From an uncultured Alphaproteobacteria bacterium (GTDB lineage Bacteria; Pseudomonadota; Alphaproteobacteria; Rhizobiales; Hyphomicrobiaceae), in the NCBI GenBank assembly GCA_963825625.1, contig CAWGUF010000019.1, positions 135,534 through 199,533 of the forward strand: DNA of 64,000 nucleotides. Direction: 5' to 3'. The translations under genes were made by a program, and so were the position numbers. How positions within the stretch are numbered: position 1 is the stretch's first letter; every line of letters begins with the position of its first letter. Of this stretch, positions 7,311 through 60,427 are shown piece by piece. The notes below the pieces were generated by a model. That model saw only the letters and a list, made by a program, of their open reading frames with translations. It made no database searches and was not told the DNA's origin.

Positions 7311-8456
7311 ATGTTCAGAATCGGACCATTCCGCAGCTCAAATGCCCCGGCGCAGCGTCGAGATGTTTCAATTCGCGACACCGATACCGGGCGGCGCAGG
7401 CGTGAAGGCCGGCTCGACTGGTTCGATTATGCCAAGGGTATCTGCATCATCCTGGTGGTGATGCTGCACTCCACGATCGGCACCGGCGAGGCCTACCGGG
7501 ACTGGGGGCTGGCGCCGCAGGGCTTCATGCATACGGTGGTGGCCTATGCCAAGCCGTTCCGCATGCCGGATTTCTTCATGCTGTCTGGTCTGTTTCTGTC
7601 CTATGCGATCGGCCGTGGCTGGCTGCACTATCTCGACAAGAAGCTGGTGCATTTCGCCTATTTCTATCTGCTGTGGACGACGATCCAGGTGGTGGTGAGA
7701 ACCGGCGCGACGAGCGGGCTGGAACCTGCCGGACTGTCGGCGCAACTGGTGGATGCGCTGGTGAACCCCTATCCGACGCTGTGGTTCATCTACGTGCTGC
7801 CGCTATTCTTCATCCTGACCAAGGCGATGCACGGCACAGTGCCGGGCTGGCTGATGCTGGCCGGCGCCGCGCTGCTGCAGATCCTGCCGGTGCATACCGG
7901 GTGGAAGGCGATCGACAGCATGGGCGCCCACTATTACGTCTACTTCCTGGCCGGCTATCTGCTCGCGCCGCGGATCTTCGCGTTGGCGCGCTGGGCGGAG
8001 GAGAACAGCGGCCGGGCTCTGGCGATGATCGCCGGCTGGGCCGTGCTGAACGGCATTCTGGTCTTCACTCCTAGCCCCATCGAGGGCTGGACGTCGGTGG
8101 CGGCGCTGCCGGTCGTTTCGCTGGCGCTGGGCGGTCTGGGTGCGGTGGCGATCATCATGATCGCCAGCGTGATGGCCAAGGCCGACGTGCTGGGCATCAT
8201 CCGATATTGCGGCAAACATTCGCTGGTACTCTACGTCTCGTTCACGATTCCGATGGCAACGACCCGGGTGCTGCTGCTGAAGACGGGTCTTGTCGCGGAT
8301 ACGGGGCTGGCTTCCGTGATCGTGTGGCTGGCGGCGCTGGCGGGGCCGCTGGTGCTGTACCTGATGGTGCGGTCGACGCCGCTGCGCTTCCTCTATGAGC
8401 GCCCGGACTGGCTGGTGCTGCCGTATCGCAGGTCGGCCACGGCGCAGGCCACCTGA
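7311..8456 (+). CDS. acyltransferase-3 family integral membrane protein (OafA/ExoZ-like)
   Basis: [20 protein letters not shown], the N-terminal motif of acyltransferase family 3, with about 10 predicted TM segments. ORF 7257..8456; start chosen at Met19. Confidence 0.8.
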
Positions 8457-8565
8457 GGACCGTCGGCAGCGCCGGGGCCCCAGCCGCAAAGACGCACCGC
8501 GGCGAAAACGTGTTGTGAACGCCGCGGGCCGCCTTGAGCGGTGCGGGTTGTCGCGCCATATTCGG

Positions 8566-11344
8566 GCCATGGCACGTGCTCCGAAATCGTCCGCCGCAGG
8601 TAAAAAGCCGCGTCCCTCGCGTGGCAAGTCCGGGAAGCCGCTGGCGCCGCCCGCGGAGACGGCCGCTGGCACGCCCGGTTTCGGCGAGGCGCCGCAGTCA
8701 TATTTTGTGCCCGGCGCCCCCCCCGCGGGCGATCCCAGCGCATCCGGCCGGCGCGCCGCAGGCGTGTCGGATGCGCCAAGCAAGACTCTCCCGGCCTTGC
8801 GCAACCAGGCGCTGACGCCGTCGTCGGATACATTCAGTGTCACGGCGGGGCTGCACGCGCTGCTCGCCCGGCCCGAGGAGCGGTCCACAGCCGCGCGCGA
8901 TCTGCTGGCGCGGCAGCCGATGATGGCCAGTCATCCGATCGTGGCCGGAACGGCGATGGAGTTCGTGCCGCACAGGCCAACCCGGCCCGAGAAATCGGAA
9001 GGCGGCATCCGGTTCGAGTTCGTCTCGGAGTTCGAGCCAAAGGGCGACCAGCCGCATGCGATCGCCGAGCTGGTGGCAGGTGTGCAGGCGCAGGAGCGGA
9101 CGCAGGTGCTGCTCGGCGTCACCGGCTCCGGCAAGACGTTCACGATGGCCAAGGTGATCGAGGCGACGCAGCGACCGGCGCTGATTCTGGCGCCGAACAA
9201 GACGCTGGCAGCGCAGCTCTACGGCGAGTTCAAGAGCTTCTTTCCGAACAATGCGGTCGAGTATTTCGTCTCCTACTACGACTACTACCAGCCCGAGGCC
9301 TACGTGCCGCGCACCGACACCTACATCGAGAAGGAATCCTCGATCAACGAGCAGATCGACCGTATGCGCCATGCCGCGACGCGTGCGCTGCTGGAGCGTG
9401 ACGACGTCATCATCGTGGCGTCGGTGTCGTGCATCTACGGTATCGGCTCGGTGGAGACCTATACGGCGATGACGTTCACGGTGCAGGTCGGCGACCAGAT
9501 ATCGCAACGTCAGCTGCTGGCCGATCTGGTGGCGCTGCACTATCGCCGCAACGACGGCAATTTCCATCGCGGCACGTTCCGCGTGCGCGGCGATACGATC
9601 GAATTGTACCCGGCCCACTTGGAGGATCGCGCCTGGCGCTTCTCGATGTTCGGGGACGAGATCGAGTCCATCACCGAATTCGATCCGCTGACGGGGCAGA
9701 AGAGCGACGAGCTGAAGCTGGTGAAGGTCTATTCCAACTCGCACTACGTGACGCCGAAGCCGACGCTGCAGCAGGCCATCCGACAGATCAAGGAAGAGCT
9801 GAAGCAGCGCCTCGACGAGCTTTACGCGAACGGCAAGCTCTTGGAGGCGCAGCGGCTGGAGCAGCGCACGATGTTCGACATGGAGATGATGGAGGCGACG
9901 GGCTCGTGCGCGGGGATCGAGAACTACTCGCGCTATCTCACCGGCCGCAAACCCGGCGAGCCGCCGCCGACGTTGTTCGAGTATCTACCCGACAACGCGA
10001 TCGTGTTCGCGGACGAAAGCCACGTCACCGTGCCGCAAATCGGCGGCATGTTCCGCGGCGACTTCCGGCGCAAGGCGACGCTGGCGGAGTACGGTTTCCG
10101 GCTACCGTCGTGCATGGACAATCGCCCGCTGCGGTTCGAGGAGTGGGATGCGATGCGGCCGCAGTCGGTTGCCGTATCGGCAACGCCGGGCGGCTGGGAG
10201 CTGGAGCAGACGGGGGGCGTGTTCGCCGAGCAGGTGATCCGGCCGACCGGGTTGATCGATCCGGAGGTGATCATCCGGCCGGCGACGAGCCAGGTCGACG
10301 ATCTGCTGGACGAGGTGCGCAAGGTTGCGAAGAAGGGCTACCGCACGCTGGTCACGACGCTGACCAAGCGCATGGCGGAAGACCTCACCGAGTACATGCA
10401 CGAGAACGGCGTACGGGTGCGCTACATGCACTCGGACGTGGAGACGCTGGAGCGGATCGAGATCATCCGCGATCTGCGACTGGGAGCATTCGATGTGCTG
10501 ATCGGGATCAATCTGCTGCGCGAGGGGCTCGACATTCCCGAGTGCGCGTCTGGTGGCTATACTCGATGCGGATAAGGAAGGTTTCCTGCGCTCGGAGACG
10601 TCGCTGGTGCAGACCATCGGGCGGGCGGCGCGCAATGTCGACGGTCGCGTCATTCTTTATGCTGACGGCATGACCGGGTCGATGGAGCGGGCGATAGCCG
10701 AGACCGACCGGCGGCGCGAAAAGCAGGTGGCCTGGAACGAGGCGAACGGTATCACCCCACAGAGCGTGCGCCGTTCGATCGGCGACATCATGGATTCGAT
10801 GTACGAGCGCGACCATGTGATCGTTGATGCCGGTGTCGCGGCCGAGGCCGGTACGGCGCTGGTCGGCCACAACCTGGGGGCGGTGATCGAGGATCTCGAG
10901 AAGAAGATGCGCGAGGCTGCGGCCGATCTGGAGTTCGAGACCGCCGCCCGGTTGCGCGACGAGGTCAAGCGCTTGCGCGAGACCGAGCTGGCGGTTGCCG
11001 ACGATCCGCTGGCGCGGGAGCTTGCCGTCGCCCCGCCGCGCGCTGCGACCTCCCGGCCTCCGAGCCGGGATCATGCGGGCGCGCGCAGCGCGCCGGTCAG
11101 GACTGCGGCAGGCTCAGGGATGGGCTCTGGGAAGGGCGCGCGCGAGGCGCAAGCAAAGAGGCCGCACAAACCGGGGCTCGATGAGATGACGGTCGGGCGG
11201 ACGGAGGTGCCGGCAGGCCGCGAACTGTCGACGCGGCCGCTGCCCAAACCGACGAAGACGGTCGATGTCGAGGACGGCATGGCGACCGTGCAGAAGGGCC
11301 CCCGTCGCGGCCGGGCAAAGAAGACGGGGCGGCCGGGGGCGTAA
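8566..11344 (+). pseudogene. uvrB: excinuclease ABC subunit B, with the reading frame interrupted once (apparent +1 insertion near 10541-10552)
   Basis: ORF 8395..10575 carries the N-terminal Ala/Pro/Lys-rich extension and UvrB helicase motifs ([24 protein letters not shown]) up to [15 protein letters not shown] 10553..11344 continues exactly with the canonical [16 protein letters not shown]...TIGRAARN and the UVR domain ([17 protein letters not shown]). The two pieces are in different frames. Confidence 0.85.
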
Positions 11345-12332: not shown

Positions 12333-12433
12333 GCGGGCCTTGCTCATTCCCGATCAAGGGGGTCATGATATCTGCCTGAACTCCAGAGGCGGGCCCAATG
12401 GGCCTGCTTTCGTTTGCGCGGATTGGATCGAGC

Positions 12434-14779
12434 ATGGCGGATGGTGAAATGGCCCGGTGGCTGGGGCGGCGGGTGGTGCGGGTCGAGGATGCACGCTTGC
12501 TGGGCGGGGAGGGCCGCTTCGTCGATGACATCGAGTTGCCCGGCTTGCTGCACGCAGCGTTTCTGAGAAGTCCGGTCGCGCATGGACTGGTGCGCAGCAT
12601 CGACACCTCGGCGGCGGCTGCGATGCCCGGTGTCCGCGCCGTGCTGACGTACCAGGATCTCCGGCGGTTTCATGTCTTCGACCGTATCCCTCAGGCGCTG
12701 CCGGCCGGGGCACTGCGGTTCGATGTCGACCCCTATTGCCTGGTCGACAAGGAGGCGTGCTACGTCGGCGAGCCGATTGCCGTCATCGTGGCCGAGTCGC
12801 GAGCGGTAGCGGAAGATGCTGTTCGCGCCATCGAGCTCGATATCGAGCCGCTAGCGGCGGTCGTGGATCCGGTCGCGGGCTTGCAGGCCGGGGCTCCGAA
12901 AGCGCGTCTCGACGTCCCGGATAATCACGTTGCCCACAGCCGTATCGACTACGGTGACGTGGATGGGGGCTTTCAGCGTGCTGCGCATGTGCTCAGCGCG
13001 CGCTTCAGGCTCGACAAGGGGGGGATGCATGCGATCGAGACGCGCGGGATCGTGGCGCGGTTCGAGCCGCAAGAGGACCTGCTGACGGTCTGGTGCAACA
13101 CCCAGATGCCGCATCGGGCCAAGCAGATCCTGGTGGCCGCCCTGGGGCTCACAGAGCCTCAGGTGCGCGTGGCGGCACCCGATGTCGGTGGTGGCTTCGG
13201 TCCAAAGGCGACATTCCATCCCGAGGAGCTGGCGGTTCCGACGGCGGCCATGATGCTGGGGGCGCCGGTCAAATGGGTGGAGGACAGGGCCGAGAACTTC
13301 GTGGCCTGCTCGGGCGAGCGGTTGCAGGACTGGGATATGGAGATGGCGGTGGACGCCGATGGGCGGCTGCTTGCTGTCAGGGGGCGGCTTTGTCACGACC
13401 ACGGCGCGGCGACGCCATACGGCGTGGCGCTGGCCTACAACGCGGCGACCAATGTCGTGGGGCCGTACCGGTTGCCGGCGTACCGCATGGACATCGACTT
13501 GTGTCTGACGAACAAGGTTCCGGCGGTGCCCACGCGCGGCGCCGGGCGCCCGCAGGGCATGTTCGTGATGGAGCGTCTGCTCGACCGGGCGGCTGCAGCG
13601 GTGGGGGTCAGCCGCGAGGAGGTCAGGCGGCGCAACTTCATTCAGCCTGAGGAGATGCCGTTCACGATTCCCATTCTGCAGCGGGATGGCAGCGCCATGA
13701 CATACGACTCCGGCGACTATCCGCTGTGTCAGTCCAAGGCGCTGGCCGCGATCGCGTGGGATGGTTTCGAAGCCCGCAGGGCAGAGGCGCGGTCGCAGGG
13801 GCGGCTGCTCGGCATCGGGCTTGCCAATTATGTCGAGGCCACCGGACGCGGGCCGTTCGAAAGCGCCAGGCTCAGCATCGGCGCATCCGGGAAGATTTCG
13901 ATCGCCACCGGCGCCAGTGCTCAAGGCCAAGGCGTCGCGACAATGCTGGCACAGATCGCGGCTGAGGCGCTCGACGTGGACCCGGCCACGATTCACGTGG
14001 TGTCCGGCGACACGGTGGGCACGCCGATGGGTTTTGGCGCGTTCGCAAGCCGCCAGGCGGTGACCGCCGGCAACGCCATCATGGTTGCGGCGAGGCAGGT
14101 GGCGGACAAGGCGAAGCAGGCGGCATCGGCCATGCTCGAGGCGTCCGCCGACGACCTGGTGATCGTGAACGGGCGCGTGGAGGTGAAGGGGGTGCCGGGG
14201 CGGGGCAAGGCCTTGGCAGAGATCGCGCGGGCGATCAACGGCGTTCCAGGTTTTGCGCTGCCGGGCGGTGTTTCGCCGGGTCTTGCCGCCGCAGTCGATT
14301 TCGAGGTGTCGGCGCTGGCCTACTGCAATGGCTGTCACGTGGCAGAGGCGGAGGTCGATGTCGAGACCGGGCAGGTGCGGCTGACCCGCTACATCGTGGT
14401 GCACGACTGCGGGCGCATCATCAATCCGCTGATGGTGGAAGGCCAGGTGCTGGGGGCTGTGGTGCACGGCATTGGCGCCACGCTCTACGAGTGGATGCGG
14501 TATTCAGACGAGGGCCAGCCGCTATCGGTCAGCTATGGCGAATATCTGCTGCCGACCACCGATGTGGTACCGCGGATCGAGATGGTCCACGTCGAGACGC
14601 CTTCACCGACCAATCCGCTGGGGGTGAAGGGGGCGGCGGAGAGCGGCACGATCGGGGCGCCGGCGGTGATCGTGTCGGCGGTAGAAGATGCGTTGCGCGA
14701 GTATGGCGTGCGGGTGCGAGAACTGCCGCTGACGCCGGACCGGCTGCGCGCCTTGATTGCGGCTGCAGACGGACCCTGA
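12434..14779 (+). CDS. molybdopterin-binding large subunit of the xanthine dehydrogenase / CO dehydrogenase (CoxL) / aldehyde oxidoreductase family
   Basis: N-terminal WLGRRVVRVEDARLLGGEGRFVDD and a ~780 aa length with conserved XDH-family blocks. ORF 12398..14779; start chosen at Met13. Confidence 0.85.
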   Translation: MADGEMARWLGRRVVRVEDARLLGGEGRFVDDIELPGLLHAAFLRSPVAHGLVRSIDTSAAAAMPGVRAVLTYQDLRRFHVFDRIPQALPAGALRFDVDPYCLVDKEACYVGEPIAVIVAESRAVAEDAVRAIELDIEPLAAVVDPVAGLQAGAPKARLDVPDNHVAHSRIDYGDVDGGFQRAAHVLSARFRLDKGGMHAIETRGIVARFEPQEDLLTVWCNTQMPHRAKQILVAALGLTEPQVRVAAPDVGGGFGPKATFHPEELAVPTAAMMLGAPVKWVEDRAENFVACSGERLQDWDMEMAVDADGRLLAVRGRLCHDHGAATPYGVALAYNAATNVVGPYRLPAYRMDIDLCLTNKVPAVPTRGAGRPQGMFVMERLLDRAAAAVGVSREEVRRRNFIQPEEMPFTIPILQRDGSAMTYDSGDYPLCQSKALAAIAWDGFEARRAEARSQGRLLGIGLANYVEATGRGPFESARLSIGASGKISIATGASAQGQGVATMLAQIAAEALDVDPATIHVVSGDTVGTPMGFGAFASRQAVTAGNAIMVAARQVADKAKQAASAMLEASADDLVIVNGRVEVKGVPGRGKALAEIARAINGVPGFALPGGVSPGLAAAVDFEVSALAYCNGCHVAEAEVDVETGQVRLTRYIVVHDCGRIINPLMVEGQVLGAVVHGIGATLYEWMRYSDEGQPLSVSYGEYLLPTTDVVPRIEMVHVETPSPTNPLGVKGAAESGTIGAPAVIVSAVEDALREYGVRVRELPLTPDRLRALIAAADGP

Positions 14780-14797
14780 GCGCGGTCAACCGATGGG

Positions 14798-15103
14798 ATG
14801 GACATCATGGCGAAGGGCTATTGGATTGCAGAGATCACGATCCGCGAGCAGGACGGGTATGAGGCCTACCAGGCCGCCGTCCGGGTGGCGCTCGACATCT
14901 ATGGCGGCAGATATCTTGTCCGCGGCGGCAGGTCCGAGGCCAGGGAGGGCGAGCCGCGTCCGCGTGCGGTGGTGATCGAATTCAAGGACTATTCAACCGC
15001 GGTTGCCTGCTACGAGAGCCCGGAATTCACCAAGGCCAAAGGTATGCGGCAGCGCCTGGCCGACACCGACTTCCTGATCGTCGAAGGCTGGGACGAGGCG
15101 TGA
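14798..15103 (+). CDS. DUF1330-family small protein
   Basis: 101-aa ORF (MAKGYWIAEITIREQDGYEAYQ...). It begins 19 nt after the XDH-family stop. Confidence 0.65.
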   Translation: MDIMAKGYWIAEITIREQDGYEAYQAAVRVALDIYGGRYLVRGGRSEAREGEPRPRAVVIEFKDYSTAVACYESPEFTKAKGMRQRLADTDFLIVEGWDEA

Positions 15104-15230
15104 GCGCGACAGTGGCGCCGGCTCGCGGCAGGTGCCAATATGTGGCATGGATCGGGTGGGACGATGCTGCTACCAACCGAACTTTCGCATAGAGACGTGC
15201 AAGACGAGCTGATCGATTGCGAGCAAGCCC

Positions 15231-15578
15231 ATGAAATCCTGTACCCAATGCGGTCGCTGCTGCCAGAACCCTCACTTCATGGAGAGCCTCGGCATTTCCG
15301 AGGAGGACGAGGCGAGGTGGCGTGAACAGGGGCGAGGCGACATATTGGCGAAGGTGAACAACCAGATGGGCTGGCTGGAGCCTGGTCCGTGTCCGTTTGT
15401 CCACGAGATGGGAGATGGCCGCTACGCGTGTGCCATTTACGAGACGCGGCCCGGAACGTGCCGCGATTATCCGATTGCGGTGATCCACATGGAATTTGTC
15501 GATTGCGAGATGCTGGATCCGGGCGATACGGATGCCGATGTCGCCCGCTTCATGGGGCGGGCCGTGGCGCAACCGTGA
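15231..15578 (+). CDS. YkgJ-family Cys-cluster (putative Fe-S/Zn) protein
   Basis: CTQCGRCC ... CPF ... C motif arrangement of the UPF0153/YkgJ family. Confidence 0.7.
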   Translation: MKSCTQCGRCCQNPHFMESLGISEEDEARWREQGRGDILAKVNNQMGWLEPGPCPFVHEMGDGRYACAIYETRPGTCRDYPIAVIHMEFVDCEMLDPGDTDADVARFMGRAVAQP

Positions 15579-15717
15579 CGGAGAAAGCAGCTCGAGCCGC
15601 GCAGCGAAGTAAAATCGCGTTTCACCGTGCGGCGTGATAACCGCCTCAGGCGGCTTGTGTTGCGGCGGGGCTGGGCCGATACTGGGCCGTTTCCGCCGAC
15701 CCCGCGAGGCCGCCCGC

Positions 15718-16995
15718 ATGCCCAAGAGCCGCTTCATGCCGCATTACGCTTTCGTCGTGGCCGCGATCGCGTTCATCACGATGCTGACCGCGGCGGGCAT
15801 TCGCGCCAGTCCGGGCGTTCTGGTCGTGCCGCTGGAAAACGAGTTCGGCTGGTCGCGCTCCATCATCTCGCTTGCTGTCGGGATCAACATCCTGCTTTAC
15901 GGCGCCACAGGGCCGTTCGCTGCCGCACTGATGAACCGCTTCGGCGTTCGCAACATGATGCTGTTCTCGCTTGCGATGCTCGGCTACGGCGTGGGCATGA
16001 CGCCCTACATGCGCGAGTCGTGGCACATGCTGCTGCTGTGGGGGCTGATCGTAGGCATCGGTGCGGGCTCGGCGGCAAACGTGCTGGCGGTGACCGTTGC
16101 CGCGCGCTGGTTCACGAAGCATCGAGGGCTGGTCACCGGCATCATGCTGTCGGCAACCGCCACGGGGCAGCTCGTGTTCCTGCCGACGCTTGCCGCGATA
16201 GCCACGGCGTATGGCTGGCGCTGGGTGTCCTTCACCATGGCGATCTGCCTGCTGGTGCTGTTTCCGCTCGTCTTCTTCCTGATGCGCGACCGGCCGCAGG
16301 ATGTCGGGTTGCCGCCGTACGGGGAGACGGATGTCGAAAAGCCGGTGGAGCGGACGCGCGCCAATCCGGTGCGGGAGGCGTTCTCGGCATTGCGGGATGG
16401 GCTTGGGCAGCGCGACTACCTGTTGCTGGCGGCGACGTTCTTCGTGTGCGGAGCTTCGACCAACGGGCTGATGGGAACGCACCTGATACCGGCCTGCATC
16501 GACCACGGCATACCGGCGGTGGCGGCGGCGAGCATGCTGGCCTCGATGGCGATCTTCAATTTCTTCGGCACGACTGCGTCGGGCTGGCTGTCGGACCGCT
16601 ACGACAACCGGGTGCTGCTGGCGGTCTACTACGCCCTGCGCGGGGTGTCGCTGATCATCCTGCCGTTCTCGATGAACTCGTTCTATGGGTTGGCGCTGTT
16701 CGTTGCCTTCTACGGCCTCGACTGGTTCGCCACCGTGCCGCCAACGGTCAAGATCACGACACGTATGTTCGGGCGCGAGCGGGCCAACATCATGTTTGCC
16801 TGGCTGATGTGCGTTCATCAGATCGGGGGAGCGTCAGCGGCGTATCTGGGCGGTGCGGCGCGAGCCGAGCTCGGGACATATCTGCAAGCGTTCATCGTCG
16901 CAGCCCTGATGTGCTTCCTGGCCGCGCTGATCGCGCTGATGATCGGCCGGAACTGGGCGGTGGACGAGCCGCGACCGGTCGCTCAGCCGGCCTGA
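15718..16995 (+). CDS. MFS transporter
   Basis: 12-TM layout with MFS-type loops (GATGPFAAALMNRFGVRN). ORF 15634..16995; start at Met29, ATG 15718 checked. Confidence 0.85.
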   Translation: MPKSRFMPHYAFVVAAIAFITMLTAAGIRASPGVLVVPLENEFGWSRSIISLAVGINILLYGATGPFAAALMNRFGVRNMMLFSLAMLGYGVGMTPYMRESWHMLLLWGLIVGIGAGSAANVLAVTVAARWFTKHRGLVTGIMLSATATGQLVFLPTLAAIATAYGWRWVSFTMAICLLVLFPLVFFLMRDRPQDVGLPPYGETDVEKPVERTRANPVREAFSALRDGLGQRDYLLLAATFFVCGASTNGLMGTHLIPACIDHGIPAVAAASMLASMAIFNFFGTTASGWLSDRYDNRVLLAVYYALRGVSLIILPFSMNSFYGLALFVAFYGLDWFATVPPTVKITTRMFGRERANIMFAWLMCVHQIGGASAAYLGGAARAELGTYLQAFIVAALMCFLAALIALMIGRNWAVDEPRPVAQPA

Positions 16996-17003
16996 CAGGA
17001 AAT

Positions 17004-17029
17004 GGCTGGCGGGCTTGGCTGGCGGGCTT
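17004..17029. repeat. perfect tandem duplication of the 13-bp GGCTGGCGGGCTT
   Basis: Two adjacent identical copies immediately after the MFS stop codon. Confidence 0.6.
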
Positions 17030-17125
17030 GACGTCGGCATCACCGTCATTTGCTGCAGCACTTGTCAGTGAGGCGACGGCGAGGCATCACGTGCGGCATG
17101 CATTCGGGTTTCGCTTGAGGATTAG

Positions 17126-18466
17126 ATGATGAGATCAGCCAATTCGAAAACGGCCTCGCGCACGACTGCGGGTGAGGGGCCATTGAACATGCTTTCCGCT
17201 GCGGAGGCGGCGCGGGCCATTGCTGCCGGCGATTTCACGTCGGAAGCGCTCGTCAAGGCATGCCTCGAGCGGATCGAGGAGCGTGAGCCCAAGGTGCGGG
17301 CATGGGCGTTCCTTGATCCCGATCTGGCCCTGAAACAGGCGCGCGCACTCGACCGCGAGTTGAAGAAGAGCGGTCCTCGCGGGGCTCTGCACGGTGTGCC
17401 GGTGGGCATCAAGGATGTGCTGGATACGGCCGATATGCCGACCCAGATGGGCTCGGCGATCTATAAAGGCCATCAACCGAGATCGGATGCGGCATGCGTG
17501 GCGATGATGCGGCGCGCAGGCGCTGTAATCCTCGGTAAGACGGTGACGTGCGAGCTGGCGGGCGTGGCGCCGCGGGAAACGCGGAACCCGCACGATCCGA
17601 AACGTACCCCTGGCGGCTCCTCGTCAGGCTCTGGCGCCGCGGTTGCGGATTTTCATGTGCCGGTTGCATTCGGCACCCAAACCGGCGGCTCGGTGTTGCG
17701 GCCAGCGGCGTTCTGTGGAGCGGTGGGATACAAGCCGACCTACAACCTCATCAATCGCGCAGGGTTGAAATTCGCGGCCGAAGGCGTGGATACGATCGGG
17801 CTGATCGGACGTACGGTCGAGGATATGGCGCTGGTCACTGATGCCTGCGTCGGCCGATCACACAAGGCGGTGGCCAAGCTCAAGGCGCCGCCGCGTATCG
17901 GGCTGTGCCGGACGTTCCTGTGGGACGAGAAGGCGCAGCCGGAGACCAAGGCTGCGGTCGAGGCCGCGGCACGGGCAGCGGAAAAGGCGGGAGCCAGGGT
18001 GCGGCCGCTAGAGCTGCCGGCTGCGTTCACGCGGCTGACGAGGGTTCGTGATCTGATCAACAACTACGAGCGTGCCGTCGGCCTCGCCTGGGAATGGGAT
18101 GTGCATCGCAAGAGGCTGTCGCCGCAGATGACCGCGACGGTGGAGCGCGGGCTTGCCGCCAAACACGCCGACTACCTCGAGGCGGTGGTGCATGCCCAGG
18201 CTTGCCGGCTCGAGATCGACACGCTGCTGGAGGACTTCGACGTCCTGCTGACGCCGGCGGTCAACGGCGAGGCGCCGCTCGGCCTCGATTACGCGGGTGA
18301 TCCGGCTTTTCAGTCGCTGTGGACGCTGCTGCATGTGCCCAGCATCACGCTGCCGCTTGCCAAGGGGCCGGGCGGAATGCCGGTAGGCGTGCAACTTGTG
18401 GCGGCGCGAAATGCGGACAAGACGCTGCTGGAGGCAGCGCGGTGGATGATGGCGTTCGCGGCGTAG
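17126..18466 (+). CDS. amidase (amidase-signature family)
   Basis: GGSSSGSGAAVA signature with catalytic Lys/Ser context; 446 aa. Confidence 0.9.
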   Translation: MMRSANSKTASRTTAGEGPLNMLSAAEAARAIAAGDFTSEALVKACLERIEEREPKVRAWAFLDPDLALKQARALDRELKKSGPRGALHGVPVGIKDVLDTADMPTQMGSAIYKGHQPRSDAACVAMMRRAGAVILGKTVTCELAGVAPRETRNPHDPKRTPGGSSSGSGAAVADFHVPVAFGTQTGGSVLRPAAFCGAVGYKPTYNLINRAGLKFAAEGVDTIGLIGRTVEDMALVTDACVGRSHKAVAKLKAPPRIGLCRTFLWDEKAQPETKAAVEAAARAAEKAGARVRPLELPAAFTRLTRVRDLINNYERAVGLAWEWDVHRKRLSPQMTATVERGLAAKHADYLEAVVHAQACRLEIDTLLEDFDVLLTPAVNGEAPLGLDYAGDPAFQSLWTLLHVPSITLPLAKGPGGMPVGVQLVAARNADKTLLEAARWMMAFAA

Positions 18467-18523
18467 CCGTCTGGGCGAACGGGGCCGCGGCCGCTGTGCC
18501 ACTAGAGCAGTTTTATCCGACCA

Positions 18524-19933
18524 GTGAACCGCGGCAGTGGTTCCGTCTGGTCGGATGATGGTCTAGCGGGATCATTCGTCAGGCCGCTCGATCAATCGAG
18601 GTTTAACGTGCGCGAGTTCGAAGCCGTGGTCGCGGAGGCTCTGGAGCATCACAAGGCGGGGCGGCTCGCCGAGGCGGGGGCGGCATACGCCCGGGCGCTG
18701 GTGTTGTCACCGGAGCATCCGGCGGTGTTGCACAATATCGGGACCGTGCAGGCCGCGCAGGGCGATCACGTCATGGCGCTGGCAAGCTTCGACAGGGTTG
18801 TCGGGGTTGAGCCAGGGTATGCCGCGGCGCATTACAACCGCGGCGTGGCGCTGGAAAAGCTCGGCAGGGCGCGCGAGGCGATCGAGGCGTTCCGGCGCGC
18901 CGTTGCGCTCGAGCCTGGCAATTACGATGCGCACCGGGCGCTCGGCTTCCTTTGGCTGGCCGAAGGCGAGCGCGGGCGAGCCCTCGACCACTTCGCCCGC
19001 ACCTATGAGCTCAGGCGCGGCGAGGATCGGACCAGTGCTGCTGCTCGATCGCTCGATCACAGCTCGAAGGCCAAGCTTTCCCATGATGCCGGGCTGTTCC
19101 GCTACCTTGCCAGCGAAATGCGCGATGGGCGCCGGTTCGAGCTGCTGGCCCGGATTTACGAACAGGCTTCGGGGGGGCTTGGCGAGGGTATCGTCCGGCT
19201 CAGCGGCGACCAGCTCGAGCTTCTTGGCGAGGACTACAACACGGCGATCAACATCCGGGTTGCGCCGGAGCTGAGCGGTCCAGCGATCAATCCGGCGCTC
19301 GACGCAGAGGCGATCGCGCAGGGGTTTGCTGACGAGCGCGCGGTGGCAATCGACGACCTGCTGACGCCGCAGGCGCTGGCCGGTCTCGGCCGCAATCTGC
19401 TGGAAAGCACGATATGGCACGACTTCAGCCACATCGGCGGTTTCGTCGCGACCTATCTGGAAGATGGTCTGGCTTCACCGCTGCTGCTGCAGGTCGCCGA
19501 CGAGCTGCGTGGGTTGCTGCCTGCCGTGCTTGGCGCTCATCCGCTGACTCAGGCTTGGGCGTTCAAGGGGCTGGAAGGGCACGCCGCTGTCGATGCGCAT
19601 GCCGACGACGCCGCGATCAGTTTGAACCTGTGGCTGACGCCGGATGCCGCCAACCTGGAGCCGGGGCAGGGCGGTCTGGCGGTGTGCCGCAGGTTGCCGC
19701 CGGCCGATTGGGCAATGGCCGGCTACGATGCCGACAAGGACGCCGTGCGCGCGTTTCTCGAAGCCCACGCCGAGGATTTGCTGCGGGTGCCCTACCTGCA
19801 GAACCGGGCAGTGATGTTCGATGCCCGGCTGTTCCACCGCTCGGACGCACCACGGTTTCAGCCAGGGCATGCGAATCACCGGATCAATCTGACCCTGCTC
19901 TATGGCCGGCGGGGCGGAGCGAAGGCGGCATGA
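18524..19933 (+). CDS. TPR-repeat protein with a C-terminal domain of unknown function
   Basis: N-terminal TPR units (AEAGAAYARALVLSPEHPAVLHNIG..., AAAHYNRGVALEKLGRAREAIEAFRRA). The start could instead be GTG 18608. Confidence 0.55.
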   Translation: MNRGSGSVWSDDGLAGSFVRPLDQSRFNVREFEAVVAEALEHHKAGRLAEAGAAYARALVLSPEHPAVLHNIGTVQAAQGDHVMALASFDRVVGVEPGYAAAHYNRGVALEKLGRAREAIEAFRRAVALEPGNYDAHRALGFLWLAEGERGRALDHFARTYELRRGEDRTSAAARSLDHSSKAKLSHDAGLFRYLASEMRDGRRFELLARIYEQASGGLGEGIVRLSGDQLELLGEDYNTAINIRVAPELSGPAINPALDAEAIAQGFADERAVAIDDLLTPQALAGLGRNLLESTIWHDFSHIGGFVATYLEDGLASPLLLQVADELRGLLPAVLGAHPLTQAWAFKGLEGHAAVDAHADDAAISLNLWLTPDAANLEPGQGGLAVCRRLPPADWAMAGYDADKDAVRAFLEAHAEDLLRVPYLQNRAVMFDARLFHRSDAPRFQPGHANHRINLTLLYGRRGGAKAA

Positions 19934-20137
19934 CCGGTTGGCTGGGCGAGGGACCGGATCAGTGCCGAGCTGGTCACGGTGGCTGGAATGGCGGGGGGCG
20001 GGACTGCCAGGAGCATTGGCCGCACGGGCCTGATCAGGACAGGAAATTGACAGCACAGGCGAGAGCCCACTATGAGGTAACTCGTACGCGGGGCCTCCCG
20101 CGCGGCAACCATCCCGATAACCAAAATCAGCGGCGTC

Positions 20138-21009
20138 ATGACACTCGAACATTGCGAGAAATATACGGACACAGCGCTGCGCGTCGGCGATGCCGATCCT
20201 TATCCGCAGCGAACCGCCGGTGAATTCATCGGCACCGTCGTGTCCAACGACTGGGTGAACAAGGAATACAAGCACCTGATTCTGAAAGTGCACGAGCGGG
20301 CGCTGGAGGCCTATGCCGGGCAGTTCTTCCACCTGCTTTGTCCGACGCCGGATGGGGCCGAGGTGTGGATGCGGCGGCCGATGAGCATCTACCGCATCGA
20401 CAAGGCCAATGGGCACCTGGAATTCCTCTACAAGTGCGAGGGACGCGGGACGCGTGGCATGGCGATGATGGGGGCCGGCGACGAGTTCAACATGGCCGGT
20501 CCTCTCGGCAAGGGCTTCGGGCTCAAGGATGGCTGGAAGAACATCGTGGTGCTCGGTCGCGGCGTGGGGCTGGCGACGCTGGCGCCGCTGTCGCAGCTGG
20601 CGAAGGACGCTGGCGTGGGCGTGACGGCCATTCTGTCCGCGCGCAATCCAGACGTGGTGATGTCGCGAGGAGCTGTTCGAGGGTCTCGGTGCCAAGACGA
20701 TCACAGTGGTCGACAGCGACGCCTCCAGCGATGTCGCGAACGTCGAGAAGATCATCGAGGAGCTGATTGCTCAGGGCAAGGCCGACGCGTTCTTCACGTG
20801 CGGCTCCAGCCGGCTGCTCAAGCTGATGCAACAGCTCGGCAAGAAGCACGGTGTGCCCGGGCAGGTCGCCATGGAGCAGATCATGGTGTGCGGCTTCGGC
20901 GCCTGCTACGTCTGCATGCGGACGTTCGAGATCGACGGCGTCAAGACGCTTGAAGCGGGTGTGCCGCGACGGGCCGGTGTTCAATATGCAGGAGGCGGTG
21001 GGATGGTAG
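20138..21009 (+). pseudogene. PyrK-like FAD/NAD(P)-binding, [2Fe-2S] electron-transfer subunit, with two frame interruptions (near 20666 and near 20951)
   Basis: Frame 2 gives the N-terminal domain with RPMSIY ... ILSARNPDVVMS. Frame 0 continues EELFEGLGAKTITVVDSDASS ... MVCGFGACYVCMRTFEIDGVKT. Frame 1 ends KRVCRDGPVFNMQEAVGW*, the canonical PyrK C-terminus. Each junction is explained by one extra base. Confidence 0.7.
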
Positions 21010-21958
21010 ATCTGTCGGTCAAGATCGGCGACATCACGCTGCAGAATCCGGTCACGCCCGCATCGGGCGCGTTCTCGTGGGAATACAACGACGTCATCGA
21101 CTTGAACCGGCTCGGCGGCCTCGTCGCCAAGACGATCTGCCGCGAGCCGCGATTCGGCAACCCGACGCCGCGCATGGCGGAGACGGAAGCGGGCATCATC
21201 CAGTCGATCGGACTGCCCGGCAAGGGCATCGAGTACTTCATCGATCACATCGTGCCGGAGTACGCGCGGTTCAAACCGCCGCTGATCGTGTCGTGCTCGT
21301 CCGACAATATCGAGGAGTTCGCTCTGCTTGACGGAAGAGCTTGGCGCGTGTGCCCGACGTCGATGTGATCGAGGCCAACATCTCCTGCCCGACGCGCAAC
21401 CTGACGGGCCAGAACTTCGCGATGCACGAGGACTACACGCGCGATAGCGTGAGGGCGATCAAGGAGAAGTGCGCGGGCAAGCCGCTGTGGGTGAAGCTGT
21501 CGCCCAACGCCGGCGACATCGTCTCGATCGCGCTGGCGGCGGAAGAGGCGGGCGCGGATTGTCTCGTCATCGCCAACACCTTCCTTTCGCTCAAGATCCG
21601 CACCGACAACTTCCGTCCGGCGCTCGGCAACAAGTTCGGCGGGCTCGTTTCGCCGGCGCTGAAGCCGATCGTGCTGCGCATGGTCTATCAGGTCGCCAAG
21701 CAGGTGAAGATCCCGATCATCGGCATCGGCGGCGTGACCAAGGCGGAGGATGTCGTCGAGTACATGCTGGCGGGCGCCAGCGCGGTCGGCATCGGCTATG
21801 CGGGGTTCCGCAACCCGACCGCGCTGGTGCAGATCATCGATGACCTCGAGCGGTGGTGCGACGAGCGCGGCATCAAGACGGTCACCGAGCTGATCGGCGC
21901 GGTGAAGGACGACGACATGGAGATGGACCCGCTGGTTGCCGCCTCGCACGGGGTGTAG
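21003..21958 (+). pseudogene. class-1B dihydroorotate-dehydrogenase-like catalytic subunit (PyrD-like), with the frame interrupted near 21330-21345
   Basis: ATG 21003 overlaps the PyrK-like stop. The first piece is MVDLSVKIGDITLQNPVTPASGAFSWEY...IVSCSSDNIEEFALL. After a frame change it continues RVPDVDVIEANISCPT...IIGIGGVTKAEDVVEYMLAGASAVGIGYA. Confidence 0.7.
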
Positions 21959-23177: not shown

Positions 23178-25315
23178 ATGGCTGGGAAAAGCGGAGCAGG
23201 CAGCGGCGGCGCAACGGGCGGCGCGAAACAAGCGGCAACCGCCGATGGCTTGAAATCACCAAAATCGGTCCTCGCTGCGCAGTCGATTGCCATTGTCGGC
23301 GCCTCGGAGAAGGGGCGCTGGCCGACGCAGATTTTCAACAATCTCAAGAAGCTCGGCTACAAAGGGCAAGTCTACCTCATCAATCCGCGACAGACCGAGA
23401 TCTATGGCGAGCGCTGCTATCCCTCGCTCAAGGATTTGCCGGCGCCTGCCGAGCACGCCGCAGTGCTGGTTCCGACGCCAGCGGTGCAATCGGTGCTGGA
23501 AGATGCGGCGGCCAGCGGCGTCAGGTCGGCCACGATCTACGCAGCGGGATTCGGTGAGGGCTCCGATCCGGACTCGGCTGAGCGGGGCGAATGGCTCAGG
23601 AATTTCATCGCGCGCTCGCAGGTGCGGATTTCTGGGCCCAACTGCATGGGCTCGTTCAGTTATCGTGAGCGGCTGTTTGCGTATCCGCATGCCGCTTTGT
23701 GCGAGTTGGAGCCGGGGCCGGTCGGTCTGGTCTTCCAATCGGGCGGCAACCTGCAGTTCTATATGCAGTCGGGTGGCGACAGGGGCTTGCGTTATTCCTA
23801 CGCGGTCTCGACAGGAAACGAGCCCGATCTGAACCTGGCCGACTATGTCAACTTTCTGGTCGACGATCCCAATACCTCGACGATCGTCTTGTTCATCGAG
23901 GGTATTCGCAAGCCGGGTCCGTTCATGGTGGCGGCGGGCCGCGCGCTGGCAGCGGGCAAGCCGATCATCTGCATCAAGACCGGCCGCAGCCAGGCATCAC
24001 GCGAGGCGGCGATGTCGCATACCGGGGCAATCGCGGGAGATTTCGAATCGTTCCTCGCCATGTGCGATCGCTTCGGCATCGTGTGCTGCCGGTCGATGGA
24101 CGATCTGGTCGAGACTGCACTGGCTTTCCAATGCGGTCGCCGGCCAAAGGGTCCGAAGATCGGTTTCGTGACGACTTCGGGGGGAACGGTCGATCTTCTC
24201 TATGATTATTGCGAGGCGGAGGGCGCTGCCCTGGCCACTTTCTCCGAAGCGACCAAGGCGGCGTTGCTGCCGACGATGCAGGAAGGAATCGCGCCGAAGA
24301 ATCCGCTGGACGTCGGCATTCCCTCGACCTCAGAGGCGGCGGCTGGCTGGTGCCGGACTGTGCACAACGATGCGGATGTCGACATGGTCGGGTTTGCCAC
24401 CAATGTGCCGAAGAAAGGCGAAGGCTATGGCGATCTGGGGCCGTTCGCCAAGCTGACACAGGAGACAAGCAAGCCGCTGCTCGGCTTCGCGCGCGTTATA
24501 CATCAGTCGCCGATCGACATCGGGCAGGCGCAACGCGATTTCGGCTTCCCTCTCCTGCAGGGGCTGGAGCCGACGGTGCGGGCGATGAACGCGTTGTGGT
24601 TCCATGCCCAGCGGCAAGGCAAGGCGCCAGTGCTGCCGCCGCCGGCGCAAGCCAGCACGCTGACGGCTGAGACACTGGAGGCGACGCTTGCCACGTATGG
24701 CATCGTGCTGCCGAAGAGCACGCTGGCCACGAAGTCCGGGCGATGCGGTCAAGGCAGCCGAGGCCATGGGCTTTCCTGTCGTGCTCAAGATTCAATCCGC
24801 CGACATTCTGCACAAGACGGAGGCGGGCGGGGTGCTTGTCGACCTCGAGATCGCCGGAAGCGGTGGCGGAAGGGGCGCGCCAGCTCGAAGCGTCCGCGCG
24901 CAAGGCATTTCCCAAGGCCCGCATCGATGGTTTTCTCGTCCAGGAGATGGTGTCGGGTATCGAGGCGATCGTAGGGGCGCGTACGGATGAGCTTTACGGT
25001 CCGATGCTGCTGGTCGGTGCGGGCGGCATTCTGGTGGAATTGGCGAAGGATGCGCGGCTGGCGATGCTTCCGGTCGGCAATGACGAGATCAGCTCGATGA
25101 TCGACGGACTGAAACTCAACCGCCTGCTGGCGGGCTACCGCGGGCGGCCGCCGGCAGACCGTGCCGCGCTGGAGCAAACGGTTGCCGGGCTGGCACAATT
25201 CTTTCTCGATCATCGCGCGGCGATCCGGGATATCGAGATCAATCCGCTGATGATCCGGGCAGACGGTAAGGGTGCAATCGCCGTTGATGTTCGTGCGATC
25301 TGGCACGACCGCTGA
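23178..25315 (+). pseudogene. NDP-forming acyl-CoA synthetase (CoA-binding, succinyl-CoA-synthetase-like flavodoxin and ATP-grasp domains), with two frame interruptions (~24733 and ~24850)
   Basis: Frame 0 has the CoA-binding region SIAIVGASEKGRW. Frame 1 has PGDAVKAAEAMGFPVVLKIQSADILHKTEAGGVLVDLE. Frame 2 has SPEAVAEGARQLEASARKAFPKARIDGFLVQEM... to 25315. Both junctions are consistent with a single inserted base. Confidence 0.7.
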
Positions 25316-25372: not shown

Positions 25373-26359
25373 ATGATTCAGGTGCGTCGGCTCGGCCATG
25401 CCACATTCACGACATCGGACATCGAGCGGGAGGTCGACTACTGGACCAACATCATGGGGCTCGCGGTGATCGACCGTACGCCAGACCGGGTCTTCCTTGG
25501 CACGCAGTACGGACATGAAGCGATCGCGCTGGTTGCGGAAGGCGATCCGGCGTGTCGACGCGATTGTCGTTTCAGGTGGCACCGGACAGCGATCTCGGCG
25601 AGCTGGCGGCCAAGGTGCTCGTCGAAGCACGGCGTGAAGTGCGAGCGCTCGAAAGGCATCTCGCCCGGCGTCGAGGATGCGATCACGTTCACGACCCGAA
25701 GGGCACGCTGACCGAGGTTTACGCCGATTACGCTTGGCAGATGCCGACGATCGCGATCCGGTCATCTCACCGCTGAAGTTCGGCCATATCGCCTACCGGG
25801 TCAATGACGCGCAGAAGGTTACGGCTTCTACACCGACGTGCTCGGCTTTCGGTGTCTCGGACTGGATCGGCGACCACTTCTCGTTCCTGCGCTGCGGGCC
25901 GGACCATCATACTGTCAACTTCGCGCGTTACGCGGAAGAGAAGCTGCATCACATCGCGTTCGAGGTGAAGGACGTGGCGACGCTGCACCGCGCTTGCGAC
26001 TTCCTCGGCCCAGGAACAAGATACAGCTGGTGTGGGGACCGATCAGGCACGTCGTCGGGCACAACATCGCTGCCTATCATCGCAATGCGGACGATATCCG
26101 CGTCGAGCTGTTCTGCGAGCTCGACATGATGCTCGACGAGACGCTGGGATACTTCGAGCCGCGGCCCTGGCACGAGGATCGGCCGCAGTGCCCCAAAGGT
26201 ATGGCCGGCGGATACCTGGCGGGCGCAATGGGGGTTCGGCTCATTCGGACAGTTTCCGGGCTATCCCTGAGGTCTCGACGCATTCTGAGCGTGGTTTTGC
26301 CGCAATATTCCGGAAAATACGTCGTGAAGATCATATCCGTGTGCGATAATACCGTTTGA
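25373..26359 (+). pseudogene. two-domain VOC-family extradiol ring-cleavage dioxygenase (catechol-2,3-dioxygenase-like), broken into at least 7 frame segments
   Basis: A GGGGAG RBS precedes ATG 25373. Recognisable pieces in alternating frames: MIQVRRLGHATFTTSDIEREVDYW...; RLSFQVAPDSDLGELAAKVL; SKHGVKCERSKGISPGVEDAITFT; DPKGTLTEVYADYAW; DRDPVISPLKFGHIAYRVNDAQK; YGFYTDVLGFR; VSDWIGDHFSFLRCGPDHHTVNFARYAEEKLHHIAFEV...; KIQLVWGPIRHVVGHNIAAYHRNADDIRVELFCELDMMLDE. Confidence 0.7.
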
Positions 26360-29040: not shown

Positions 29041-29065
29041 GCTTTGTCGCAATTTCAGGTCAAGG

Positions 29066-29108
29066 GCAGCCGCGGTCGTCACGATCGCGGCTGCTTGCAT
29101 TTTCTGCC
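29066..29108 (+). terminator. intrinsic terminator after the DUF533 gene
   Basis: 9-bp perfect stem GCAGCCGCG / CGCGGCTGC with loop GTCGTCACGAT, followed by TTGCATTTTCTG. Confidence 0.55.
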
Positions 29109-59043: not shown

Positions 59044-59253
59044 TCGGATGTTCGCGTGGAGGGTGGCGTGACAGCGAAGCGTTAACGATAATGCGCGAGA
59101 CGAAAACGCGCACGCATGAATCGTGATCGCGGGTCTTTACAGCGACGGCGTTGGGGCTTATCTCCTGCAATTCGAAACCTGAACGTAGTGGCGGTCTCTG
59201 CTGGTCCTAGCAGCGCCTACTGGTTGAAACCCGACTGGTGGAGGTCCCATGAG

Positions 59254-60427
59254 ATGGAGCGATTCCCGTCTGCGGCGCACTGATCGAAGGCGCTAAAGCC
59301 CGAGCATCCCGTGTTCGGCATCCGTCCGCACGCCGCAGCGCGCGCGGCGCATTGGTTTCTGAAGAACTTCCCTGGTGAGGTGGCCTACGCCTACAAGGCG
59401 AACCACTCGGTCTTCATGATCGGGGCGCTTTATGGCGCCGGCATCACGCAGTTCGACGTCGCCTCCTTGCCGGAGCTGGAGGACGCGGCGACCATTCCCG
59501 GCGTGCAAGCTGCACTTCATGCATCCGGTGAAGTCTCGCCGGGCGATCAGGCTCGCCTACCACGAGTACGGCATTCGCTGCTTTGCTCTCGACACCGAGG
59601 ACGAGCTTGCGAAAATCCTGGAGGAGACGGGCAACGCGAAGGATCTGCAACTCTTCGTGCGTATTTCCGTCCCTGCCAAGGACAGCCGGGTGCCACTGGA
59701 GCGGAAGTTCGGGATCACGGGGCCGAAGGCTGCGAGGTTGCTCGTCAAGACCCGCCAGCACTGCGACGAGCTCGGACTGACATTCCACGTCGGCTCACAG
59801 ACGACGACGCCGGATGCCTACATCTCGGCGCTGGAGGAATGCCGTAAGCTGATCGTCAAGGCTGGCGTGGTGGTGGATGCGATCGATGTCGGCGGCGGCT
59901 TTCCATCACGCTATACCGACAGCCATCCGTCGCCTTTGTCGGCGTTCGTGGAGGCGATCGGGGCGGCGTTCGAGCGCATGCCGGTATCGCATGACTGCCG
60001 TCTGATCTGCGAGCCCGGCCGCGCGCTGGTGGCGGAGGCGGAGAGCCTGGTCGTGCGGGTCGATGCCCGGCGTGGCGACGAGTTGTTCATCAACGATGGC
60101 AGCTACGGGGCGCTGTTCGATGCCGCACACCTGAACTTCGTGTTCCCTGTGCGTCTGGTGGGGCGGGATGTGCCGGTCTCCGAGCAGATGCATCCATTCG
60201 AGTTCTGGGGGCCGACCTGCAACTCGATCGATCGCATGAAGGGACCGTTCATGCTGCCGGCATCGGTGCGTGAAGGCGACTATCTGGAGATCGGCAATGT
60301 CGGCGCCTATGGCCGCGCCATTGGTGGCCGGTTCAATGGCTATGGCCAATACCAGGAGGCGATACTGGAGGACGAGCCGATGTTCTCCATGTATGCCGGA
60401 CCCGAGGCCGCGGTGGCGAACGGGTAG
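59254..60427 (+). pseudogene. ornithine/lysine decarboxylase (alanine-racemase-fold PLP enzyme), with an in-frame TGA at codon 10 and a frame interruption near 59497
   Basis: ATG 59254 has a GGTGGAGG RBS 8 nt upstream and reads MERFPSAAH-TGA(59281-83)-SKALKPEHPVFGIRPHAAARAAHWFLKNFPGEVAYAYKAN...FDVASLPELEDAATIP, then shifts to CKLHFMHPVKSRRAIRLAYHEYGIR...GGGFP...EPGRALV... to 60427. The listed ORFs begin at GTG 59311 and at 59432. Confidence 0.7.

What the first reader, a model, noticed from the sequence alone, without database searches (positions are those of the whole stretch)
8395..60427. Frame interruptions are non-randomly distributed and biased toward +1 insertions
I find interruptions in uvrB, the PyrK-like and PyrD-like genes, the acyl-CoA synthetase, the extradiol dioxygenase, Rieske oxygenase copy 2, the PDR-type reductase, the EutA-like gene and the ODC. 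Long genes interleaved with them are clean: the 793-aa XDH subunit, the MFS transporter, the amidase, UbiD, flotillin, ilvD, the MDR oxidoreductase between two broken genes, and Rieske copy 1. Most junctions I could resolve are a single extra base, several in short C/G runs (CGGCCGC, CCGGGCG, ATTCCCG); only about two are deletions. Random decay should give insertions and deletions in roughly comparable numbers and should also hit large neutral targets. A strong insertion bias clustered in particular operons points to a technical cause (homopolymer over-calling or a consensus/polishing problem) or to a mutator-type process. If biological, several catabolic operons and NER would be simultaneously inactive. 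That would be a notable lifestyle signal.
Basis: inference. Interest (0 to 1): 0.6.

Follow-up and report, generated by a model that had tools for sequence, protein, structure and literature searches.

The report
Assembly indel errors, not pseudogenes
Nine genes in this window are split by clustered single-base indels, mostly insertions, but read-based assemblies of the same organism show four of them intact, so these are consensus errors in one assembly rather than gene decay.

Summary
All nine named genes are frame-interrupted, and every interleaved gene I could test is clean. They fall in kb-scale clusters (10549; 20667-21340; 24730-26189; 36638-37700; 40252; 59273-59507).

They are artefacts of the source assembly, a 418-kb NCBI/ENA contig. 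Logan assemblies of runs ERR15459714 and ERR12037369 carry flanking proteins identical to the window's, next to intact genes:
- acyl-CoA synthetase, 711 aa
- extradiol dioxygenase, 296 aa
- PDR-type reductase, 322 aa
- ODC, 390 aa

The gene lengths differ from the window by exactly the net indels I inferred (+2, +7, +3, +1 nt).

Other evidence agrees:
- Every clearly resolved event is a single base; the remainder are compatible with that.
- No broken gene carries a nonsense substitution.
- The repaired dioxygenase matches 95 of 95 invariant family columns.

Homopolymer over-calling is not the cause: 14 of 14 well-resolved insertions sit in runs of 2 or fewer. Five genes (uvrB, PyrK-like, PyrD-like, Rieske copy 2, EutA-like) lack direct read-based confirmation. 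The sequencing platform could not be determined. Interest is low.

The parts
8395..11344 (+). uvrB. One extra base at 10548-10550 (GCG[T]CTG) shifts the frame inside Helicase_C, in the conserved [21 protein letters not shown] stretch.
   Evidence: Pfam splits Helicase_C between two ORFs. The sequence was read directly. Alignment to P0241, P0242, P0246 and P0249 gives one consistent +1 at 10543-10549. Not confirmed by read-based contigs.
20138..21009 (+). PyrK-like flavoprotein. Two single-base insertions, at about 20666-20670 and about 20948-20952.
   Evidence: DNA alignment with syntenic loci L002-L005. Alignment to four references agrees.
21003..21958 (+). PyrD-like dehydrogenase. Two single-base insertions 13 nt apart (GCTG to GCTTG at about 21326-21330, and about 21340-21344), which together look like a -1 shift.
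   Evidence: DNA alignment. Three of four references call two +1 events. The C-terminal 207 aa are 95% identical to relatives.
23178..25315 (+). ADP-forming acyl-CoA synthetase. Single-base insertions at about 24731-24733 and 24846-24847. The gene is 2138 nt here and 2136 nt (711 aa, intact) in the Logan contig.
   Evidence: Pfam. Alignment to five references. Logan contig of ERR15459714.
25373..26270 (+). Extradiol (VOC-type) dioxygenase. At least 11 single-base events: deletions at 25691 and 25824; insertions at 25621, 25853, 26006, 26013 and 26189; further events between 25530 and 25750. The gene is 898 nt here and 891 nt (296 aa, intact) in the Logan contig.
   Evidence: Alignment to five references. 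Logan contig. The repaired protein matches 95 of 95 invariant columns of 81 homologs.
35642..36968 (-). LigXa-type Rieske oxygenase copy 2. One extra base at 36635-36640.
   Evidence: Pfam finds no Rieske domain in the main ORF. Alignment to five references gives +1 at 36635-36641. The spacing to the tandem paralog changes from 1400 to 1401 nt at this point.
37215..38186 (+). PDR-type (FAD/NAD/2Fe-2S) reductase. One extra base at about 37373-37381 and two extra bases in a GGGG run at about 37700. The gene is 972 nt here and 969 nt (322 aa, intact) in the Logan contig.
   Evidence: Pfam. Alignment to seven references. Logan contig of ERR15459714.
40102..41608 (+). EutA-like protein. One extra base at 40251-40253 (GT[CGA]CG).
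   Evidence: Pfam EutA positions 34-474 lie in one frame. Five references agree on +1 at 40252. The Logan contig ends too early to test this site.
59254..60427 (+). Ornithine/lysine decarboxylase-like PLP enzyme. A deletion at 59273 and an insertion at about 59287-59290 form a compensating pair that creates the TGA at 59281. A further insertion lies at 59505-59509. The gene is 1174 nt here and 1173 nt (390 aa, intact) in the Logan contig.
   Evidence: Alignment and sequence reading. Logan contigs of ERR15459714 and ERR12037369.
12398..20000 (+). Clean stretch: XDH large subunit, DUF1330, CxxCxxCC-domain ORF, MFS, amidase and TPR protein.
   Evidence: Pfam. No frameshift in alignments for XDH, amidase and TPR. 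An identical amidase is present in Logan contigs.
28572..35972 (.). Clean stretch that is collinear with a 7.4-kb Logan contig: DUF533 C-terminus, UbiD, flotillin, NMT1 and Rieske copy 1. Every gene boundary matches to the base.
   Evidence: with coordinates converted from the Logan gene table. Flotillin is 628/628 identical.

Best explanation
The frame interruptions are base-level consensus errors in the assembly the window was cut from, a 418,126-nt contig deposited in NCBI and ENA. They are almost all single extra bases with a few missing bases. They concentrate in kb-scale patches where the local error rate reaches about 0.3-1.4%, and the sequence between the patches is accurate. The organism, a Hyphomicrobiaceae-like alphaproteobacterium, has intact copies of these genes.

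Shown: intact ACS, dioxygenase, PDR reductase and ODC in read-based contigs of the same organism.

Inferred: the other five genes are broken by the same process. The cause is an error-prone, probably long-read or hybrid, consensus that was polished incompletely or disturbed by strain mixtures.
For: (1) Source. The window's intact proteins and two of its broken fragments (the 598-aa ACS fragment and the 112-aa dioxygenase fragment) each exist in the 15-billion-protein collection on a single contig of 418,126 nt.

(2) Independent assemblies. Logan contigs of run ERR15459714 carry proteins identical to the window's MDR (330 aa), MarR (207 aa) and arginase (313 aa). Next to them lie an intact ACS of 711 aa, an intact dioxygenase of 296 aa, an intact reductase of 322 aa and an intact ODC of 390 aa. 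A second run, ERR12037369, has an uninterrupted ODC reading frame of at least 405 codons ending at the same stop.

(3) Geometry. Gene starts, stops and spacers match the window to the base. The only differences are inside the broken genes, which are longer by +2, +7, +3 and +1 nt. These are exactly the net indels inferred beforehand from homolog alignments. A clean 7.4-kb stretch is collinear with no net indel.

(4) Lesion spectrum. Every clearly resolved event is a single base, and the unresolved ones are compatible with that. No nonsense codon arises except through a frameshift. Insertions outnumber deletions about 23 to 3. Real bacterial pseudogenes show 300 insertions to 396 deletions and a broad size range (PMC6054270).

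(5) No decay. The dioxygenase carries at least 11 indels, yet once repaired it matches 95 of 95 invariant and 38 of 39 near-invariant columns of 81 homologs. The C-terminal part of PyrD is 95% identical to relatives in other genera.

(6) Gene-fragmenting indels are a documented property of long-read assemblies (PMC12007338).
Against: Logan DNA could not be read ('file too large'), so the comparison rests on gene tables: product lengths, Pfam domains and coordinates.

Five genes (uvrB, PyrK, PyrD, Rieske copy 2, EutA) have no read-based check.

The indels are not homopolymer-associated, which is atypical of the usual ONT, HiFi, 454 and Ion Torrent consensus errors. The platform and the reason for the patchiness are therefore unexplained. 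GC content inside the patches equals the window mean.

The window's GFO protein is not exactly matched in Logan although the length is the same. This shows some strain or substitution difference between the two data sets.
Confidence: 0.93

Rival explanations
1. Real, very recent pseudogenes in one strain. The deposited contig represents a sub-lineage that truly carries the indels, and the Logan contigs come from a co-occurring sister strain with intact genes.
For: Logan contigs break at the same length in two runs: the amidase contig is 2,441 nt in both. The GFO protein is not identical. Both point to strain heterogeneity in these samples.
Against: The flanking proteins are 100% identical over 207-628 aa. 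A lineage that accumulated at least 26 indels, at least 11 of them in one 0.9-kb gene, should also show substitutions. None falls on 95 invariant columns, and there are no nonsense mutations and no larger indels. The insertion excess runs opposite to the natural excess of deletions.
Confidence: 0.04
2. A mutator or localised error-prone synthesis process, for example patch synthesis after DNA damage helped by loss of uvrB, produced clustered +1 frameshifts.
For: The events are significantly clustered, are insertion-biased, and include a repair gene.
Against: From general knowledge, mismatch-repair-deficient and DinB-type spectra are dominated by -1 or +1 changes in mononucleotide runs together with base substitutions. 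Here the insertions lie in runs of 2 or fewer, with no excess substitutions. Intact alleles exist in the read-based contigs.
Confidence: 0.02
3. Programmed recoding, by ribosomal frameshifting or transcriptional slippage, rescues these genes.
For: None specific. Most shifts are +1.
Against: There is no slippery or homopolymeric motif at the sites. Some genes carry several shifts of both signs. All homologs, including the nearest MAG, are unshifted at these positions.
Confidence: 0.01

Closest known systems
Gene-fragmenting indel errors in long-read or hybrid (meta)genome assemblies, as described for example in the Kastor paper (PMC12007338)
   Same: Single-base indels split otherwise conserved genes into adjacent ORFs. 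They disappear in an accurate read-based assembly. They create apparent pseudogenes.
   Different: Published long-read consensus errors are mostly homopolymer-associated, and for nanopore data are often deletions. Here the errors are mostly insertions in non-repetitive context, and they come in kb-scale patches rather than being spread evenly.
Pseudogene-rich genomes of recently host-restricted bacteria (Ca. Burkholderia leaf-nodule symbionts, PMC6054270; Sodalis glossinidius, PMC3091646)
   Same: Many genes, including catabolic operons, are interrupted by several small indels each.
   Different: Those genomes show an excess of deletions (insertion to deletion ratio about 0.76), a broad range of indel sizes and accelerated non-synonymous change. 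The window shows an insertion excess, events that are single bases wherever they can be resolved, perfect conservation of invariant residues, and intact alleles in the reads.

Membership tests
Sequencing/assembly indel artefact | The lesions are absent from an independent assembly of reads from the same organism. | tested here: met
   Logan contigs with identical flanking proteins hold an intact ACS (711 aa), dioxygenase (296 aa), PDR reductase (322 aa) and ODC (390 aa). Not testable for uvrB, PyrK, PyrD, Rieske copy 2 or EutA.
Sequencing/assembly indel artefact | The affected genes are otherwise under unchanged purifying selection, with no excess substitutions and no nonsense codons. | tested here: met
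   The dioxygenase matches 95 of 95 invariant columns. Alignments contain no in-frame stop other than the TGA at 59281, which a frameshift pair creates.
Sequencing/assembly indel artefact | Uniform event size of one base. | tested here: met
   Every clearly resolved event is one base. Length differences against Logan equal the sums of single-base events. The GGGG site in PDR may be a single 2-nt event.
Sequencing/assembly indel artefact | The lesions coincide with low coverage, low base quality, or joins in the assembly. | not testable with these tools
   No reads, qualities or assembly metadata are available. GC content in the clusters equals the window mean.
Homopolymer over-calling (454, Ion Torrent, nanopore type) | Indels lie in mononucleotide runs of 3 or more. 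| tested here: not met
   14 of 14 well-resolved insertions have a maximum run length of 2 or less. Only the PDR site at about 37700 lies in GGGG.
Genuine pseudogenes from reductive evolution | Excess of deletions and mixed lesion types (nonsense mutations, multi-base indels, IS insertions). | tested here: not met
   About 23 insertions to 3 deletions. There are no nonsense substitutions and no IS elements in the broken genes. Compare PMC6054270.
Genuine pseudogenes from reductive evolution | Relaxed selection in the inactivated genes. | tested here: not met
Programmed ribosomal frameshifting | A conserved shift site with a slippery motif, shared by orthologs. | tested here: not met
   Orthologs in L001-L005, L050 and L052 and the P-series proteins are unshifted. 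No motif is present at the sites.

The most novel reading that the evidence does not exclude
A co-occurring sub-lineage of this Hyphomicrobiaceae population really carries a burst of insertion-biased, non-homopolymer, kb-clustered frameshifts. This would be a localised insertion-prone mutational process that has not been described in bacteria. On this reading the deposited contig reports that lineage faithfully, and the Logan contigs report its intact sister.
Probability: 0.03. Interest if true: 0.6.

Novelty: not a real feature. Interest (0 to 1): 0.07.

Why it matters
The main value is as a warning. Taken at face value, this window suggests that nucleotide excision repair and several aromatic and amino-acid catabolic operons are inactive. 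That would wrongly imply a degenerating, host-restricted lifestyle, and it would add spurious truncated proteins to databases. At least two of the truncated products (the 598-aa ACS fragment and the 112-aa dioxygenase fragment) are already deposited as singleton 'proteins'. The patchy, insertion-biased, non-homopolymer error pattern is also a useful signature for flagging similar contigs, and it shows that this contig needs re-polishing before any pseudogene or metabolic analysis.

Tried and rejected
- Exact look-ups of window proteins (XDH, DUF1330, ilvD, dioxygenase fragment, GFO) found nothing. The look-up appears to hide the source contig, and Logan coverage is patchy.
- The genome-contig scan with MDR found no relative closer than 73% aa. 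It was useful only for synteny and PyrK/PyrD references.
- tblastn of ACS against plasmids gave only 33% identity, too distant to place junctions.
- Plain blastn against 74-79% identical relatives produced many spurious compensating gap pairs. I replaced it with a frameshift-aware protein-to-DNA alignment.
- The third chimeric protein search returned only flotillins. It did, however, reveal the 100% match that led to the Logan contigs.
- Apparent frameshifts in the low-complexity N-terminal extension of uvrB (8395-8990) differ between references, so I discarded them.
- A possible -1/+1 pair in the PG-binding gene (27308/27331) rests on a 41% identical low-complexity alignment and is not counted.
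- A TPP-enzyme 'split' at 3259 is two genes, with a stop codon, a GAGGGAG ribosome-binding site and an ATG. It is not a frameshift.
- GC content of the error clusters equals the window mean, so GC does not explain them.
- The run accessions do not appear in the literature library.
Full report
**What the window is.** The window is 63.5% G+C with mostly plus-strand genes. The nearest public relatives are Hyphomicrobiaceae, Devosia and Bradyrhizobiaceae MAGs. The closest is GCA_050186055.1, at 73-92% amino-acid identity depending on the gene.

**Checking the interruptions.** Pfam scans of stop-to-stop ORFs show that each of the nine named genes has its domains distributed over adjacent ORFs in different frames:
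- uvrB: Helicase_C is split at about 10545.
- PyrK-like and PyrD-like: DHO_dh positions 2-110 and 118-289 lie in separate ORFs.
- ADP-forming acyl-CoA synthetase: ATP-grasp_5 is spread over three frames.
- Extradiol dioxygenase.
- LigXa-type Rieske oxygenase copy 2: the Rieske domain is missing from the main ORF.
- PDR-type reductase.
- EutA-like protein.
- ODC-like decarboxylase.

**Locating the events.** I collected references in three ways: syntenic loci, chimeric protein searches and a representative search for UvrB. I then wrote a protein-to-DNA aligner that allows frameshifts.

| Gene | Events |
|---|---|
| uvrB | +1 at 10548-10550 |
| PyrK-like | +1 at about 20667; +1 at about 20949 |
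| PyrD-like | two +1 events, at about 21327 and 21340 |
| ACS | +1 at about 24731; +1 at 24847 |
| Dioxygenase | 8 shifts called, resolving to at least 9 events |
| Rieske copy 2 | +1 at about 36638 |
| PDR reductase | +1 at about 37377; a shift in GGGG at about 37700 |
| EutA-like | +1 at 40252 |
| ODC | -1 at 59273; +1 at about 59290; +1 at about 59507 |

The two PyrD insertions are 13 nt apart and together look like a deletion. The Rieske copy 2 insertion also shows up as a change in spacing to its tandem paralog, from 1400 to 1401 nt. The first two ODC events are a compensating pair that creates the TGA at 59281.

XDH, amidase, TPR, MDR, Rieske copy 1, GFO, MarR, ilvD, Sel1, arginase and flotillin show no frameshift.

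**Statistics.** Over 25.9 kb of tested coding sequence the events are strongly clustered. The per-gene chi-square is 105.6, which none of 200,000 simulations reached. The median gap is 196 nt against 773 nt expected. Insertions outnumber deletions 17 to 6 before refinement and about 23 to 3 after it (p=9e-5).

**Sequence context.** All 14 well-resolved insertions lie where the longest mononucleotide run is 2 or less. Homopolymer over-calling is therefore not the mechanism. GC content in the clusters equals the window mean.

**No sign of decay.** After repair, the dioxygenase matches 95 of 95 invariant and 38 of 39 near-invariant columns of 81 homologs, as well as real family members do. The PyrD C-terminus is 95% identical to orthologs in other genera, while neighbouring genes are 62-67% identical. 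No broken gene has a nonsense substitution. Every clearly resolved event is one base. Curated bacterial pseudogenes, by contrast, show 300 insertions to 396 deletions, a power-law size distribution and accelerated non-synonymous change (PMC6054270).

**The decisive evidence.** A protein search by chance returned a flotillin 628/628 identical to the window's. Exact look-ups showed that the window's intact proteins and two of its broken fragments sit on a single 418,126-nt NCBI/ENA contig, which is the source. Looking up intact window proteins then found Logan contigs built from public runs ERR15459714 and ERR12037369.

- Next to an identical MDR (330 aa) lie an intact ACS (711 aa; 2136 nt against 2138 nt in the window) and an intact dioxygenase (296 aa; 891 nt against 898 nt).
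- Upstream of an identical MarR (207 aa) lie a 401-aa GFO and an intact PDR reductase (322 aa; 969 nt against 972 nt).
- Upstream of an identical arginase (313 aa) lies an intact ODC (390 aa; 1173 nt against 1174 nt). The second run has an uninterrupted ODC frame of at least 405 codons.

All spacers and gene boundaries outside the broken genes match to the base. This includes a clean, collinear 7.4-kb stretch. The length differences (+2, +7, +3, +1 nt) equal the net indels inferred beforehand. They also resolve two ambiguities: the PDR GGGG site holds two extra bases rather than a deletion, and the dioxygenase holds at least 9 extra and at least 2 missing bases.

**Conclusion.** The interruptions are consensus errors in the deposited contig. 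They are not pseudogenes, not a mutator footprint and not recoding. For uvrB, PyrK, PyrD, Rieske copy 2 and EutA this is inferred from the same lesion spectrum and the same conservation, because no read-based contig covered those sites.

The platform and the cause of the patchiness remain unknown. Gene-fragmenting indels are well known in long-read assemblies (PMC12007338). The non-homopolymer insertion bias seen here is atypical of the usual nanopore or HiFi residual errors. It would fit an unpolished or strain-confused long-read consensus, but that is speculation.

Noticed in passing
window 34248-35567 and 35642-36968 (minus strand): Two tandem LigXa-type Rieske oxygenase paralogs, 75-80% identical at the DNA level and 1400 nt apart. 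The cluster continues with a PDR-type reductase, a GFO/IDH/MocA oxidoreductase and a MarR regulator. The arrangement is conserved in many freshwater and soil metagenome contigs (L022-L043).
   Followed up: partly
window 20138-21958; loci L002-L005: The PyrK-like and PyrD-like pair is far more conserved across genera (80-95% aa) than its syntenic neighbours amidase, TPR protein and MDR (62-67%). It sits in a conserved XDH-amidase-TPR-PyrK-PyrD-MDR cluster, which suggests a strongly constrained pathway of unknown role.
   Followed up: no
window 8395-8990: uvrB has a low-complexity N-terminal extension of about 200 aa before the conserved core. Related UvrB representatives of 844-961 aa have similar but poorly alignable extensions.
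   Followed up: partly
window 52600-59050 versus L050: In the nearest MAG, DUF4384 is followed directly by ODC. The window has about 7 kb of extra genes between them: BKACE, luciferase-like monooxygenase, amidohydrolase, tryptophan 2,3-dioxygenase, kynureninase and a small Rieske ferredoxin.
   Followed up: no
window 2675-3789 (minus strand): A TPP enzyme appears split into an N-domain ORF and a C-domain ORF. It is two genes with a stop, a GAGGGAG ribosome-binding site and an ATG, like the alpha and beta subunits of sulfopyruvate or phosphonopyruvate decarboxylase. It is not a frameshift.
   Followed up: yes
window 38192-39397: The window's 401-aa GFO/IDH/MocA protein is not exactly matched in Logan, although the Logan contig has a 401-aa GFO at the same position. 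There is at least one substitution difference, from strain variation or a substitution error.
   Followed up: partly
window 26462-27418: The PG_binding_1 protein aligns poorly (41%) to its ortholog. There is a possible compensating -1/+1 pair at 27308/27331 in a low-complexity region. Unresolved.
   Followed up: partly
window 63139-63213: A tRNA-Val (CAC) gene, 100% identical over 75 nt to the one in the nearest Hyphomicrobiaceae MAG (L050, L051).
   Followed up: yes
window 5251-6837: A 528-aa ORF with no Pfam match lies in a 2-kb region (5200-7250) with a weak coding signal.
   Followed up: no
Logan contigs of ERR15459714 and ERR12037369: The amidase contig is 2,441 nt with the same gene layout in both runs. 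Contig ends therefore seem set by graph branching from strain mixtures rather than by coverage. This may be relevant to why a long consensus of this population is error-prone in patches.
   Followed up: no
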